From a virus (Duplodnaviria; Heunggongvirae; Uroviricota; Caudoviricetes): a stretch of 4,033 nucleotides of DNA. This document shows, in pieces, positions 408 through 4,033 of the stretch; positions within the stretch are counted from its first letter, which is position 1, and each line of letters starts with the position of its first letter. The notes under the pieces were generated by a model, which saw nothing but the letters and a program-made list of their open reading frames with translations, made no database searches and had not been told where the DNA came from. The translations under genes were made by a program, and so were the position numbers. Location of the stretch: IMG/VR virus record IMGVR_UViG_3300014614_000008, positions 1 to 4,033 of that record; one strand, given 5' to 3'.

Positions 408-619
408 CAGAACCTCGCCAGCCGGTACCCGGGATGCCCCCGTCGTCGTGTAATCAGAGCCGCAAGGCGGCGCTCCCACTCCTGCCGTCCCTGCCGGATC
501 TCAGATAAGTTTTCCATGGTCATCTGCTGACCATTAAAGGTGACGGATTTTCCGTCCAGCACCGCCATTTCAGCTTCCGTATAACGCTGAATCATGGCTT
601 CGATATCATTCTGGTTCAT
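407..619 (-). CDS. Head-tail joining / head completion protein, lambda gpW family
   Basis: 70-aa product MNQNDIEAMIQRYTEAEMAVLDGKSVTFNGQQMTMENLSEIRQGRQEWERRLAALITRRRGHPGYRLARF. The C-terminal TRRRGHPGY motif parallels lambda gpW TQRRRGPAGF, and the size (lambda gpW is 68 aa) and position between terL and portal fit. The start at 619 forms ATGA with the terL stop (618..616) and has a GGAGGA Shine-Dalgarno 5 nt upstream; the ORF-track start at 625 (MVM...) sits too close to that SD. Confidence 0.75.
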   Translation of the reverse strand: MNQNDIEAMIQRYTEAEMAVLDGKSVTFNGQQMTMENLSEIRQGRQEWERRLAALITRRRGHPGYRLARF

Positions 620-2717
620 AACCATCCTCCGGAAGTCAGCCAGGGGTTAACATCGTCAGTTACTGTTTTCTTCCGTTTTTGTTTTTTAACAGGCGTGGAT
701 ACCGGTTCCGGTGAGGGTGACGGTTCGGTACTGTCCGGGACACACTCCAGCCAGGTTTCCCGGCTCGCCCACTCCGGTGCATCCGGCCAGCGGATCTTTT
801 CGTATCCATGCAGAATGACCAGAGCCTCGGCATACACCATTAGGTCAAAAGCTTCGTTGGCACCGCGACCCGGCTTACTCCATTTCCCGTCACTACTCCG
901 CTCTTCATACGTCAGTTCGTCGTAAAACCAGCTCCCCAGCCAGTCAGGGAAATGCACATAGCCGGGACCTGGCGAGTCACGCCATAACGCGTTATTCACC
1001 CGGTCTTTCAGGGCATCCGTCTGAAGAAGCCAGAGCGGCACATCACCTGCGGCCTGCGCCCGTCGGCCCGTTCGTCCGGTGTTATCAGGGAATGTACGGG
1101 TGATCAGTTTTGCGCGCCGGATGCTGTCGCCCTTAAACAGGTAAATACGTTTACCAAGGCCATCACGACGGCAACGACGCCAGAATTTATAGGCATTATC
1201 AGTGACCCCGTCTTCACCGCCGGAGTCCACCGCCATTGCCATCAGTCGCATTTGTTGAGAAGGATCGGAGGCCAGCGGCCAGCTTTTATGAAAAACATCC
1301 GTCAGCAGGACATCCCAGTCTTCCGGATAGCTGGCCGGATCAATTCGCTGGCTCTCCCCGTCGCTGTCACCGCGCAATGACTGCGTGATGTTGTAACGAT
1401 CAATAATCCAGCGTTCGCCACGGCTGCCATAGCCCGTTACCTGAACCACAAAACGGCGATGACGTCCCGCCTGCACATCCACTGTCGCCACAAGGAAATT
1501 AACGCCATCCGGCACACTGCGGGAAGGAACTGGCTCTGCCCGCTGCTCAAGCAGTTCACTTTTTCGTTGCTCCATGCTGGCACGGGGAAGATAAGGTAAT
1601 CCCCAGTCGGTATTGATAACCGTCTTGAGTGTTTCTTCACTTCCGGTTGTCTCGTATTCCTGTTCTGCAGTAAGCAGTTTGTAAACGAGTTGCGAGAGTG
1701 TCTGGTAAGCAGCTGCCGGACCCTCCATCCAGAATGACGCAATACGTGAGCGTCGGGGATCACCATAACGACTGCCATCCGCATTGATGGATTCACCATC
1801 CCGCAACCAGACCCCACGTCCGTTCAGCTCACGTTTTTGTTCAGGCATAATCCGTCCTGAACAGGAAGGACACTGAATATAAGCCGCCTCACTTGCCAGC
1901 ACGGGATCGGCAATATCACGGAAACCAGCAACCACATCGCCGCAGGGCTGAAAATACTCACCACAGTGTGGACAGGGCCAGTACCAGCGACGGCGATCGC
2001 CACGGTTATAGAGCGACAGTATCCCCGTGGTTGGTGGAGCCTCATGCGGTGAAGTCCGTCGCCATTTCACATCCTTCACATCCCTGCCGGGGGAACTCTC
2101 CACCAGCGTCATACCACTGGACATAAATGTGGTGGTACGTTTTGAGGCAAGAGAGAAGGCATCCCCCTCGCCATCAATATCTTCCGGAAAACGGTCATAA
2201 TCCGTCAGCGCCACGCATTTATAATCTGATGAGGACATGATATTGACTGACGGCCAGCCGATTTTCAGGTAGTTGCCAGCAAGGAATGTTCTGTCATAAA
2301 CGTTGTTGTCATTTTTGTTCGGACTCAGGCGACTGACCACTTCCGGGCTGACGCGAAACGTTCTGGCAAGTCGTTTTTTGGAGTGTNNNNNNNNNNTTCC
2401 TCCGTCATCTGAATGATCAGCATATCCGCAGGATCGCAAATCACGTTGTAAATCACCCAGCCGTCAATCAGGCCGATAGTCTTGCCGGTTCGTGCCGGAC
2501 CAACAAATATCACTGCGTCGTATTCACGCGAGGCCAGGCAGTTCATCGGCTCAATAACATACGGTGCCACCAGCGGATCCCACGGGACTGAGTTCCCTGC
2601 CCCCATGGGCACCCGCATATACTGAGCAACGGCATCAGCAACCCGCATTCGTCTCGGTGCGCGAAGGATATAACCTGAATCGGTTCGTGCTGCCTTTGCG
2701 GTTTCCTGATTCAGCAT
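616..2717 (-). CDS. terL: Terminase large subunit, lambda gpA family; interrupted by a 10-N assembly gap at 2387..2396 with the frames on either side out of register
   Basis: N-terminal segment (2717 down to 2397) reads MLNQETAKAARTDSGY...YDAVIFVGPARTGKT...DMLIIQMTEE with a P-loop-like GPARTGKT. C-terminal segment (2386 down to 616) contains CPHCGEYF...CPSCSG (compare lambda gpA CPHCGEE), VATVDVQAGRHRRFVVQVTGYGSRGERWIIDRYNI (compare lambda TAGIDSQLDRYEMRVWGWGPGEESWLIDRQII), GKRIYLFKGDS and DLMVYAEAL, ending in a basic tail KKQKRKK. The ORF track splits it into 2325..2717 and 616..2439 because of the N-run. Stop at 618..616. Confidence 0.9.
2387..2396. other. Assembly gap (run of 10 N) inside terL
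   Basis: Ten consecutive N at 2387..2396. The terL frame upstream of the gap (codon starts congruent to 2 mod 3) and downstream (congruent to 0 mod 3) differ, so the N-run is a placeholder of unknown true length. Confidence 0.95.
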
Positions 2718-3211
2718 TACTCCTCCTGCTGTAATTCCTCCTCATCATCCGCACCTGCTTCAGTCACCCGCAGGGCTATCTGATCGCGCAGATCATCAAT
2801 AATGGACTGAACACGGCTCACAGCGGCAGGCTGCAGACCGCAGTCACGTTCAAGAATATCCGGTAATGTCTCCAGCACCTGCACGACCGCTTTTGCCCAG
2901 ATGGCAAACTCCCGTCTGACATCACTGGCCGGAATGAGTTGTGCCGTTTCCTGTTCGAACTTAAGACGCTCACGTTCAGACTGATACCAGGCTTTGCGCT
3001 CATGCGCGTCCATTTCGCCTTCTGCAACCGGCGGTGGTAATGCCAGAAATGCCGACACAATATCAACCACCCGATAAAGCTTGAGGTTGCTTTCATGCCC
3101 CCCTGCAACGGGTAGATTTTGCAGCCTTGCCGCAGCAGTCTGGCGATGTACACCTGACAGTGCCGCCAGTTGACTGATATTCAGCGTCAGATTTTTTAAC
3201 TCTCGATCCAT
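2717..3211 (-). CDS. terS: Terminase small subunit, lambda Nu1-like (DNA packaging protein Nu1 homolog)
   Basis: 164-aa product MDRELKNLTLNISQLAALSGVHRQTAAARLQNLP... with an N-terminal helix-turn-helix-like segment as in lambda Nu1 and an acidic C-terminus. GGAG Shine-Dalgarno at 3220..3217 lies 5 nt upstream of the ATG at 3211. Its TAA stop (2719..2717) overlaps the terL ATG (2717..2715) as TAATG. Sits immediately downstream of a cos-like site, as in lambda. Confidence 0.85.
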   Translation of the reverse strand: MDRELKNLTLNISQLAALSGVHRQTAAARLQNLPVAGGHESNLKLYRVVDIVSAFLALPPPVAEGEMDAHERKAWYQSERERLKFEQETAQLIPASDVRREFAIWAKAVVQVLETLPDILERDCGLQPAAVSRVQSIIDDLRDQIALRVTEAGADDEEELQQEE

Positions 3212-3263
3212 ACCCGCTCCAGAATGTTTTAAACATGCATCTTGCGAACAACTTTAGGCAAAA

Positions 3264-3350
3264 GGTGTTAGTGGTGAACAAAAAACAATCAAAATAGACA
3301 CCATAAAAATAAAATCACCGTAATATCAATACATTACAGTAGTGGTGATG
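3264..3350. promoter_or_regulatory. Candidate cosB-like terminase-binding region: repeats flanking an IHF consensus
   Basis: TAGTGGTGA occurs as a direct repeat at 3269..3277 and 3340..3348, with an inverted partial copy (ATCACCG) at 3314..3320. TATCAATACATTA at 3324..3336 matches the IHF consensus WATCAANNNNTTR exactly and lies between the cosN-proximal repeat and the inverted copy, mirroring the lambda R3-I1-R2-R1 layout. The region is AT-rich and has no plausible ORF. Confidence 0.45.
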
Positions 3351-3380
3351 ACGAATGAAATTTCAAAAACTAGCCTTTTT

Positions 3381-3403
3381 CCGCGACGCTCCCGCCCCGT
3401 GGC
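3381..3403 (-). other. Candidate cosN (cohesive-end nicking site) of a lambda-like phage
   Basis: Minus strand reads GCCACG GGGCGGGAGCGT CGCGG, against lambda ...TTACG GGGCGGCGACCT CGCGGG: 8 of 12 identities in the 12-nt cohesive-end segment (3386..3397) plus matching ACG and CGCGG flanks. It lies about 175 bp upstream of the terS start; lambda Nu1 starts at nt 191 from the left cohesive end. Confidence 0.5.
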
Positions 3404-3568
3404 AGGCCACCCCACCGGGAGGACCCGTCAGCCTGACAGCTCTGACGAACGACTGATACAACGCCTTGCATGAGTGGCATCGGGATAATCCAGAAAGGCA
3501 TAGCATCGTGCCCACAAGAATCTGTGTAAGTGTCCTGTTTCTTCCACCCCCGCACAGGACTGGCGAGC

Positions 3569-3745
3569 ATGAGGGACAAACCCGCGAACCATAAACGCGG
3601 TAAAAACCCGGTGTGCATCGTTTTTGATTATTCCCGCACACTCGCGCAGAAGGAGTTCCCCGTCGGGCTACGGTCTCTGTTAATACGGGAATACGGCGAC
3701 GATACAGCGCATGATGTGTCAGGCTTGAATACCTTTATCCTTTAA
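3569..3745 (+). CDS. Hypothetical small protein (58 aa from the ATG; the ORF track extends it to a GTG at 3530), unknown function; may be non-coding
   Basis: Open frame MRDKPANHKRGKNPVCIVFDYSRTLAQKEFPVGLRSLLIREYGDDTAHDVSGLNTFIL on the strand opposite the packaging genes, between cos and IS1. Only a weak possible SD (AGGA about 9 nt upstream of the ATG at 3569), no convincing promoter, and no family I recognise. Confidence 0.2.
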   Translation: MRDKPANHKRGKNPVCIVFDYSRTLAQKEFPVGLRSLLIREYGDDTAHDVSGLNTFIL

Positions 3746-3827
3746 AAGGGATATCAGTTAAGTTATCCCGTGTAGGGTATAAGCCATTATCAAAGCCACT
3801 CTGTAGGGAATGGCTTTTGTGATGGCA

Positions 3828-3899
3828 TCACTTACTCTTTACGCTGCTATCCCACTCATCCCGGAATTTTGATGGGTTATTGAAACCTTCTGCTGACAT
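3828..3899 (-). CDS. Hypothetical 23-aa micro-ORF with a canonical Shine-Dalgarno; unknown function
   Basis: Minus strand AAGGAG (3910..3905), 5-nt spacer, ATG at 3899..3897, then MSAEGFNNPSKFRDEWDSSVKSK and a TGA at 3830..3828. A 7-bp inverted repeat (AAAGCCA/TGGCTTT, 3792..3798 and 3811..3817) follows. No homolog recognised. Confidence 0.2.
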   Translation of the reverse strand: MSAEGFNNPSKFRDEWDSSVKSK

Positions 3900-3957: not shown

Positions 3958-4033
3958 GGTGATGCTGCCAACTTACTGATTTAGTGTATGATGGTGTTTT
4001 TGAGGTGCTCCAGTGGCTTCTGTTTCTATCAGC
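3958..4033 (+). mobile_element. IS1 insertion sequence, left end (first 76 bp); the element continues beyond the window
   Basis: 3958..4033 reads GGTGATGCTGCCAACTTACTGATTTAGTGTATGATGGTGTTTTTGAGGTGCTCCAGTGGCTTCTGTTTCTATCAGC, which matches the canonical IS1 left terminus as I remember it, including the 23-bp terminal inverted repeat at 3958..3980. Confidence 0.9.
4013..4033 (+). CDS. insA: IS1 InsA (transposition repressor / N-terminal part of the InsAB' transposase), first 7 codons only
   Basis: GTG GCT TCT GTT TCT ATC AGC translates to (M)ASVSIS, the known InsA N-terminus, at the expected distance from the IS1 end. Confidence 0.8.

What the first reader, a model, noticed from the sequence alone, without database searches (positions are those of the whole stretch)
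3264..3403. Lambda-like cos site with a recognisable cosN and an R-site / IHF / R-site cosB layout
About 175 bp upstream of terS the minus strand reads ACG-GGGCGGGAGCGT-CGCGG, close to the lambda cohesive-end junction (ACG-GGGCGGCGACCT-CGCGG). Between it and terS are two direct TAGTGGTGA repeats (3269..3277, 3340..3348), one inverted partial copy (3314..3320) and a perfect IHF consensus (3324..3336), in the same relative order as lambda R3-I1-R2-R1. The four central differences in the 12-nt overhang suggest a cohesive-end variant distinct from lambda.
Basis: partly seen in the sequence, partly recalled or inferred. Interest (0 to 1): 0.45.

Follow-up and report, generated by a model that had tools for sequence, protein, structure and literature searches.

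The report
Lambda-type cos packaging site of prophage
This is the DNA-packaging start/cut site (cos) of a common lambda-like E. coli prophage, a natural variant of the well-known lambda cos site whose sticky-end sequence is already implicit in public phage records, so it is real but ordinary.

Summary
The minus strand reads ACG|GGGCGGGAGCGT|CGCGG 175 bp upstream of terS. TAGTGGTGA occurs twice, and a perfect IHF consensus lies between the copies.

The lambda-like cos interpretation is well supported:
- The segment aligns with lambda through cosQ (GGGTCCT), cosN and the spacer beyond it.
- The downstream large terminase is gpA-type.
- The public records of phages cdtI and Tritos start exactly at GGGCGGGAGCGT and end at ...CCACG.
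- More than 119 viral contigs carry the identical 20-mer, joined to three different cosB/terS modules.

The sticky end differs from lambda at bp 7, 8, 9 and 11, and from Gifsy-1 only at bp 7. That is the pattern Feiss and colleagues describe as common.

One correction is needed. The real inverted site is GGTGTC(G/T)A at 3295-3302. Across 22 relatives a C/T base changes together in all three R sites, along with the residue before HRQT in the TerS helix-turn-helix.

TerS belongs to Pfam DUF1441, not Phage_Nu1, although its N-terminal fold matches the Nu1-type DNA-binding domain.

I could find no direct mapping of virion DNA ends. Verdict: a new member of a known kind, of low interest.

The parts
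3420..3426 (-). cosQ-like heptamer GGGTCCT (packaging-termination signal in lambda)
   Evidence: Read directly. It aligns with lambda GGGTCCT at the right end, one base closer to the nick. It is invariant in 51/33/16 distinct relatives of the three cosB types and in Gifsy-1.
3386..3397 (-). cosN cohesive-end sequence GGGCGGGAGCGT. Predicted nicks lie between 3398|3397 on the minus strand and between 3386|3385 on the plus strand, giving a 12-nt 5' overhang. CG flanks both nicks (3399-3398 and 3385-3384).
   Evidence: cdtI and Tritos records start with this 12-mer and end at ...CCACG. The 20-mer is in more than 119 IMG/VR contigs. Assembly anomalies in the Ayreon and mEp460_4F5 records fall within 3 nt of the predicted nicks.
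3364..3385 (-). Conserved spacer CGCGGAAAAAGGCTAGTTTTTG between cosN and cosB (position of lambda I2)
   Evidence: It is identical in all three cosB/terS modules that share this cosN. It is alignable with lambda CGCGGGTTTTCGCTATTTATG.
3340..3351 (-). R3-equivalent TerS site, TCATCACCACTA (+47..+58 from the left end).
   Evidence: The position equals lambda R3 (bp 50-65) and N15 R3 (bp 48-60) (PMC9026076). The core CGTCATCACCAC is kept in 53 of 56 close relatives. CAC versus CAT covaries with the TerS helix-turn-helix across 22 loci.
3324..3336 (+). I1-equivalent IHF consensus TATCAATACATTA (+62..+74)
   Evidence: It is the only match in the window. 53 of 56 close relatives keep the consensus, and their differences fall in the NNNN positions. 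0-1 mismatch sites are found at the same place in 15 of 22 divergent relatives, and the cdtI type has one at +64.
3314..3320 (+).
   Evidence: It is variable within close relatives (GTGGT, GTATT, GTGAT, GTAGT, GTTGT). It is not conserved in CP-1639, Scandinavium and others that share the same TerS helix.
3295..3302 (+). R2-equivalent inverted TerS site. The + strand reads TAGACACC (family consensus TCGACACC); the minus strand reads GGTGTCTA. It lies at +96..+103.
   Evidence: The core GTGTCGATT is near-invariant in 56 close relatives. The block is conserved across genera, and its CAC/CAT base switches together with R3 and R1. The window allele (G to T) is shared with the E. coli AR436 chromosome.
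3276..3288 (-). Conserved T-rich block TTGTTTTTTGTTC between R2 and R1. Its function is unknown; it may be bendable DNA.
   Evidence: It is conserved in types A and C, CP-1639, VT1-Sakai and several other genera.
3269..3277 (-). R1-equivalent TerS site TCACCACTA (+121..+129).
   Evidence: The family consensus is TCATCACTA. TTCA(T/C)CA(C/T) is kept across genera and covaries with TerS.
2717..3211 (-). terS, small terminase subunit, 164 aa. Pfam DUF1441. [quoted passage not shown]
616..2717 (-). terL, gpA-type large terminase (ATPase plus cos endonuclease). The reading frame is interrupted by an N-run at 2387-2396.
   Evidence: Pfam GpA_ATPase and GpA_nuclease, E=7.6e-86. An intact 700-aa orthologue exists in vB_EcoS-569R4 and E. 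coli AR436.

Best explanation
Window 3269-3426, read on the minus strand, is the cos site of a lambda-like temperate phage. It has the lambda order cosQ - cosN - spacer - cosB (R3, IHF site I1, inverted R2, R1) - terS - terL.

**Inferred mechanism, by analogy with lambda**
1. [quoted passage not shown]
2. IHF bends the DNA at I1.
3. The anchored gpA-type TerL nicks cosN 12 bp apart. This leaves 5'-GGGCGGGAGCGT cohesive ends.
4. DNA is then translocated into the prohead. Packaging ends at the next cos, which needs cosQ plus cosN.

**Shown here**
- Sequence homology to lambda cos.
- The terminase families.
- Conservation of the site and its modular linkage to three terS/cosB types.
- Covariation of the R sites with the TerS helix.

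**Inferred, not shown**
- The nick positions.
- Binding by IHF and TerS.
- That this particular prophage copy is still active.
For: 1. **Homology with lambda** over cosQ, cosN, the flanking CG pairs and the spacer: 58 of 101 aligned positions, 16 of 20 in cosN. Chance gives 16/20 in 1 of 300 shuffles.
2. **TerL** has the GpA ATPase and GpA endonuclease domains.
3. **Public records.** cdtI and Tritos are linearised exactly at the predicted left nick. Tritos makes plaques and virions (PMC9928086).
4. **Spread.** The identical 20-mer is in more than 119 viral contigs. It is followed by three distinct cosB regions, each tied to its own terS. This mirrors the lambda/21 arrangement of shared cosN with specific cosB and Nu1.
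5. **Geometry.** R3 lies at +50 and the terS ATG at +187, against 50-65 and 191 in lambda.
6. **IHF site.** The consensus is kept in 53 of 56 relatives, with variation confined to the N positions. It recurs at the same place in other cosB types.
7. **Covariation across 22 loci.** TerS with (G/D)(V/A)HRQT goes with CAC in R3, R2 and R1. TerS with L, M or S before HRQT goes with CAT in all three sites. This includes the close type A / type C pair.
9. **Published pattern.** The overhang differs from lambda only in bp 7-12 and from Gifsy-1 (GGGCGGCAGCGT) only at bp 7. This matches the published pattern of variation (PMC4669245).
10. **Assembly anomalies.** In the mEp460_4F5 record, 3 nt are deleted at the right nick. 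In the Ayreon record, a 153-nt chimeric insert replaces +4..+15.
Against: - No experiment mapping virion ends for this cos was accessible. The cdtI paper (PNAS 2007) could not be read, and the Ayreon paper says cos was only 'expected' upstream of terS.
- The cdtI and Tritos records may have been opened at this position by analogy with lambda rather than from end mapping.
- TerS is Pfam DUF1441, not Phage_Nu1. Its similarity to Nu1 is remote (hhalign probability 10%).
- Covariation of adjacent DNA and gene can partly reflect linkage.
- R2 and R1 spacing differs from lambda: R1 is at +121 here against about +150 in lambda.
- The window's own R2 core carries a G to T change relative to the near-invariant consensus.
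- An IS1 sits 560 bp upstream and terL contains an N-run, so the activity of this copy is unknown.
Confidence: 0.85

Rival explanations
1. It is a cos-derived sequence that no longer functions: a relic in a defective prophage. It is recognisable by homology but is not cut or packaged in this strain.
For: An IS1 end begins at window 3958, where related phages carry their lysis genes. The R2 core has G to T (GTGTCTA) where sampled IMG/VR relatives are nearly all GTGTCGA. The terL frame cannot be verified because of the N-run.
Against: cosQ, cosN, the spacer, R3 and I1 are identical to those of plaque-forming phages (Ayreon, mEp460). The same allele, including GTGTCTA, occurs in complete E. coli genomes next to intact terS, terL, portal and lysis genes. 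The window's own terS is intact.
Confidence: 0.1
2. The AT-rich repeat and IHF segment (3269-3348) is mainly a transcriptional or translational control region for terS, not a terminase-binding cosB. The repeats would bind a regulator, and only the GC-rich part would be cos.
For: One weak sigma-70-like match lies on the minus strand at 3329..3300 (9 of 12). IHF sites are common in promoters.
Against: The count of promoter-like matches is close to that in shuffles (3 against 1.2 +/- 1.0). In lambdoid phages the late genes are transcribed from the upstream late promoter through cos (established knowledge). The repeats covary with the TerS helix-turn-helix itself. R3 sits at the lambda R3 distance from the nick.
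Confidence: 0.03
3. The phage packages by a headful (pac) mechanism, and the lambda-like 20-mer is coincidental.
For: None beyond the absence of direct end mapping.
Against: TerL is gpA-type with the gpA endonuclease domain. Homology to lambda extends over about 100 bp including cosQ. The Ayreon authors' terminase phylogeny also indicated cos packaging.
Confidence: 0.02

Closest known systems
Phage lambda cos (cosQ-cosN-cosB with R3-I1-R2-R1; Nu1/gpA terminase)
   Same: The order of subsites is the same. The GGGTCCT heptamer is present. The left half of the overhang, GGGCGG, is kept, with CG flanking both nicks. The overhang is 12 nt. R3 lies at about +50 and is followed by an IHF consensus. 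R2 is inverted. The terS ATG is about 190 bp from the end. TerL is gpA-type.
   Different: The overhang differs at bp 7, 8, 9 and 11. cosQ is 1 nt closer to the nick. The R-site sequence is unrelated (TCA(C/T)CAC against lambda CGTTTCC). R1 is at +121 rather than about +150. TerS is Pfam DUF1441 rather than Phage_Nu1.
Salmonella phage Gifsy-1 cos (listed by Feiss et al. among lambda-like cohesive ends)
   Same: The overhang GGGCGGCAGCGT differs from the window's at one position, bp 7. cosQ GGGTCCT is present. The literature describes its cosB as R3-I1-R2-R1.
   Different: Gifsy-1 TerS is a Phage_Nu1 family member. Its cosB repeats are different (AGATCCGTTCT type, read).
Phage cdtI (AB285204) and phage Tritos (OV696610)
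   Same: cosQ, cosN and the first 33 nt after the nick are identical. Both records start at GGGCGGGAGCGT. TerL is gpA-type and TerS is DUF1441. An IHF consensus lies at +64.
   Different: The cosB is different (TTCACCTG-type direct repeats) and the TerS N-terminus is different (MSNVSGIGDAYYW...). This is a different presumed packaging specificity.
Phages mEp460 and Ayreon (same cosB/terS module)
   Same: They carry the same terS and the same cosB, including R3, I1, R2 and R1.
   Different: Their records were opened arbitrarily at terS, and cos was never annotated. mEp460 has G at overhang position 12. The Ayreon record has a chimeric insert in place of cosN.
cos sites of phage-inducible chromosomal islands (Fillol-Salom 2019; Feiss 2022)
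   Same: A shared helper-type cosQ and cosN is joined to a different downstream module. Islands carrying this same 20-mer were seen in L018 and L132.
   Different: The window's cos is followed by a phage terS/terL operon, not by an island gene.

Membership tests
[quoted passage not shown] | cosN sequence related to lambda, with a conserved left half and CG flanking each nick | tested here: met
   GGGCGG is identical. The differences lie only at bp 7, 8, 9 and 11. CG is present on both flanks. The pattern matches PMC4669245.
Lambda-like cos site | Conserved 7-bp cosQ upstream of cosN | tested here: met
   GGGTCCT lies at 3426..3420. It is 29 nt from the nick, against 30 nt in lambda.
Lambda-like cos site | Virion DNA carries 12-nt 5'-protruding complementary ends generated at this site | not testable with these tools
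   The support is indirect only. The cdtI and Tritos records start and end at the predicted nick. Assembly anomalies occur at the nicks in the 4F5 and Ayreon records.
Lambda-like complex cosB (R3-I1-R2-R1) | Three related TerS-binding repeats, with the middle one inverted | tested here: met
TCA(C/T)CAC(T) occurs at +50 and +121 in direct orientation. TC(G/T)ACACC occurs at +96..+103 in inverted orientation. All three switch CAC to CAT together with the TerS helix across 22 loci. Binding itself was not tested.
Lambda-like complex cosB (R3-I1-R2-R1) | [quoted passage not shown] | tested here: met
   A perfect consensus lies at 3324-3336. It is conserved in 53 of 56 relatives, with variation only in the N positions. 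It recurs in other genera and in other cosB types. IHF binding itself is not testable here.
Lambda-like complex cosB (R3-I1-R2-R1) | R3 at a fixed distance (about bp 48-65) from the left end | tested here: met
   The site lies at +47..+58, against lambda at 50-65 and N15 at 48-60.
Lambda-type terminase | Large subunit of the gpA family with ATPase and cos endonuclease domains | tested here: met
   PF05876 and PF20454, E=7.6e-86.
Lambda-type terminase | Small subunit of the Phage_Nu1 family (PF07471) | tested here: not met

The most novel reading that the evidence does not exclude
Lambdoid phages with DUF1441-type small terminases form a set of at least three to five uncharacterised packaging specificities that share one cosQ/cosN. 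Recognition would be set largely by one base in each R site (CAC against CAT), read by the residue preceding the HRQT motif of the TerS helix-turn-helix. Satellites that copy one of these cosB modules exploit the system (seen in L018 and L132).
Probability: 0.45. Interest if true: 0.4.

Novelty: new member of a known kind. Interest (0 to 1): 0.2.

Why it matters
**Practical value.** The site gives the correct genome ends for a prophage family found in about 13% of complete E. coli genomes. It also applies to phages such as mEp460 and Ayreon, whose records are opened arbitrarily or misassembled at cos. It identifies PGAP's 'DUF1441 family protein' as the small terminase.

**Conceptual value.** The finding adds little. 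Variation in bp 7-12 of lambda-like cohesive ends and the R3-I1-R2-R1 layout are both published.

**The modest new element.** Comparative evidence points to a TerS/R-site recognition code in the DUF1441 branch. That could guide experiments on packaging specificity and on satellite hijacking.

Tried and rejected
1. **mEp460 record start as the physical end.** Rejected. The record begins at an annotated ATG 25 bp upstream of the real terS start.
2. **Literature search for the literal overhang GGGCGGGAGCGT.** It returned only two unrelated eukaryotic papers.
3. **Unavailable papers.** The cdtI paper (PMC1964815) and Casjens & Gilcrease 2009 (PMC3082370) are not held. The Tritos paper has no statement on cos.
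5. **Rfam scan of the window.** Nothing relevant was found.
6. **Promoter and terminator scan.** No terminator, and promoter-like matches were near the chance level.
7. **mEp460's T12 to G as a terminal sequencing artefact.** Weakened, because a metagenome-assembled genome (L143) also has G at position 12.
Rejected as a conserved site.

Full report
**What is in the window**

The minus strand carries the start of a lambdoid late operon:
- terS at 2717-3211.
- terL at 616-2717, with its frame broken by an N-run at 2387-2396.
- A small head-tail joining gene at 407-625.
- The start of the portal gene.

TerL has the gpA ATPase and gpA endonuclease domains. TerS is Pfam DUF1441 and PHROG 141 'terminase small subunit'.

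**Check of the observation**

- Minus strand 3400..3381 reads ACG GGGCGGGAGCGT CGCGG.
- TAGTGGTGA occurs exactly twice, at 3269-3277 and 3340-3348.
- The only WATCAANNNNTTR match in the window is at 3324-3336.
- A 16/20 match to the lambda junction arises in 1 of 300 shuffles.
- The 'inverted partial copy' at 3314-3320 is only a 5-nt match.

**Homology to lambda cos**

I aligned the lambda end junction with the window. The alignment shows the following:
- The cosQ heptamer GGGTCCT, at window 3426..3420, one base closer to the nick than in lambda.
- ACG|GGGCGG at the left nick.
- CG on both flanks.
- CGCGG, and then a related spacer (GCTA.TTT.TGAAA.TTT).

The region is 74% GC at cosN. It drops to 24-32% GC in cosB.

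**Public records**

| Record | Relation to the predicted cos |
|---|---|
| cdtI (AB285204, 2007) | Begins GGGCGGGAGCGTCGCGGAAAAAGGCTAGTTTTT and ends ...CCTGCCACG |
| Tritos (OV696610), a plaque-forming phage of E. coli LF82 | Same start and end as cdtI |
| mEp460 | Opened at an annotated ATG, so uninformative |
| Ayreon | Its authors state that cos was only expected upstream of terS |
| mEp460_4F5 | Lacks TCG at the predicted right nick |

In the Ayreon record, a 153-nt chimeric insert replaces positions +4..+15 of cosN. The insert includes a 72-nt copy of terS. I read this as misassembly at physical ends. That reading is an inference.

**Distribution and modularity**

- The exact 20-mer is in more than 119 IMG/VR contigs.
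- Window 2720-3827 is present at 80% coverage or more in 728 of 5426 complete E. coli genomes.
- Downstream of an identical 33-nt stretch, the contigs split into three cosB types. Each is linked to its own TerS N-terminus. Type A is the window's type, type B is that of cdtI and Tritos, and type C is a close relative of A.
- This is the lambda/21 situation: a shared cosN with a specific cosB and small subunit.

**cosB anatomy**

Counting from the left end (+1 = 3397):

| Element | Position | Note |
|---|---|---|
| First repeat (R3-equivalent) | +50..+58 | Same place as lambda R3 (50-65) and N15 R3 (48-60) |
| IHF consensus | +62..+74 | |
| Second repeat (R1-equivalent) | +121..+129 | |
| terS ATG | +187 | Lambda Nu1 at 191 |

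Among 56 close relatives:
- The IHF consensus is kept in 53, and all variation falls in the N positions.
- The R3 core CGTCATCACCAC is kept in 53.
- A block GTGTCGATT at about +97 is near-invariant.

I then retrieved DUF1441 terS loci from other genera. These include Scandinavium, Buttiauxella, Tatumella, Citrobacter, Enterobacter, Pantoea, Serratia and others. The same architecture recurs. Three blocks change together:

| TerS motif | R3 | Inverted R2 | R1 |
|---|---|---|---|
| ..G(V/A)HRQT | CATCACCAC | TCGACAC | TTCA(T/C)CAC |
| L, M or S before HRQT | CATCATCATC | TCGACAT | TTCA(T/C)CATC or TTCGACATC |

The second pattern includes type C, which is otherwise close to type A.

So the layout R3-I1-R2(inverted)-R1 holds. 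R2 lies at 3295-3302, not at 3314-3320. The window's R2 has a G to T change, which is shared with the E. coli AR436 chromosome.

**TerS**

- By Pfam it is not a Phage_Nu1 member, whereas lambda and Gifsy-1 TerS are.
- It cross-hits the Nu1 PHROG.
- hhalign aligns residues 9-55 with Nu1 residues 2-50.
- The covarying residue sits at the start of the predicted recognition helix. This placement is an inference from the alignment.

**Comparison with what is known**

Feiss and colleagues define lambda-like phages by 12-nt 5' ends related to lambda's (PMC4669245). They note three points:
- bp 7-12 vary commonly (N15 at 9 and 12; Gifsy-1 at 8, 9 and 11).
- cosQ and the CG flanks are conserved.
- Changes in the right half do not measurably affect cleavage.

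I read the Gifsy-1 cos directly. Its overhang is GGGCGGCAGCGT, one base different from the window's. Other variants seen here are mEp213 GGGCGGCGCGCT and shorter GC-run forms in VT1-Sakai and CP-1639.

The window is therefore one more natural variant of a well-described site, and its end sequence has been in GenBank since 2007.

**Verdict**

The nick positions and the protein binding remain inferred. This is a new member of a known kind, of low interest. The DUF1441 TerS/R-site covariation is a modest lead.

Noticed in passing
L018 93-112 and 8228-8247; L132 8428 and 9833 (also L074, L106): A second copy of the same cosQ/cosN 20-mer lies in an inserted island. The island has integrase, BRO-like, primase-like and SSB-like ORFs and sits next to a type-A terS. 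Its cosB copies the cdtI/Tritos type, and it is followed by a ClpP-like prohead protease gene instead of terS. It looks like a cos-carrying phage satellite.
   Followed up: partly
window 3604-3711 (and the wider stretch 3533-3840): This non-coding stretch is 82% identical to lambda 46868-46974, which lies between bor and lambdap78. It is about 87% identical in many Stx-converting phage records, mostly without a named gene (none or hypothetical). There is no Rfam match. Its function is unknown.
   Followed up: partly
window 3958-4033: The left end of an IS1 element begins at 3958 (GGTGATGCTGCCAACTTACTGAT...). The same junction occurs in three complete E. coli genomes, in a degraded prophage next to a DUF1398 gene. 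In related intact prophages this position holds the lysis genes.
   Followed up: partly
window 2387-2396: A run of 10 N lies inside terL. The reading frames on its two sides differ by one base, so the run stands for a gap or mask of a different length, not a real frameshift.
   Followed up: no
L001 147-299 (Ayreon MF807953 about 44410-44562): The Ayreon record has a 153-nt insert in place of cosN +4..+15. The insert is made of a 72-nt copy of terS (window 2807-2878) plus a zinc-finger-like coding piece. It is annotated there as part of a 'putative late gene regulator' and is probably a misassembly at the genome ends.
   Followed up: partly
window 3363-3641 (minus strand): A 92-aa ORF spans cosQ and cosN. 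It is annotated as a hypothetical protein in mEp460 and as a regulator in Ayreon. It runs through cos and is most likely not a gene.
   Followed up: no
L166-L179 (Marinobacter, Halomonadaceae, Marinospirillum loci): Distant DUF1441 terS genes in marine gammaproteobacteria are also preceded by GGGTCCT or GGGACCC, a GC-rich cosN-like block, CGCGG plus a T-run, and their own repeated motifs (for example GGTGCCGAA three times in Salinicola). The cos architecture therefore seems to extend well beyond enterobacteria.
   Followed up: no
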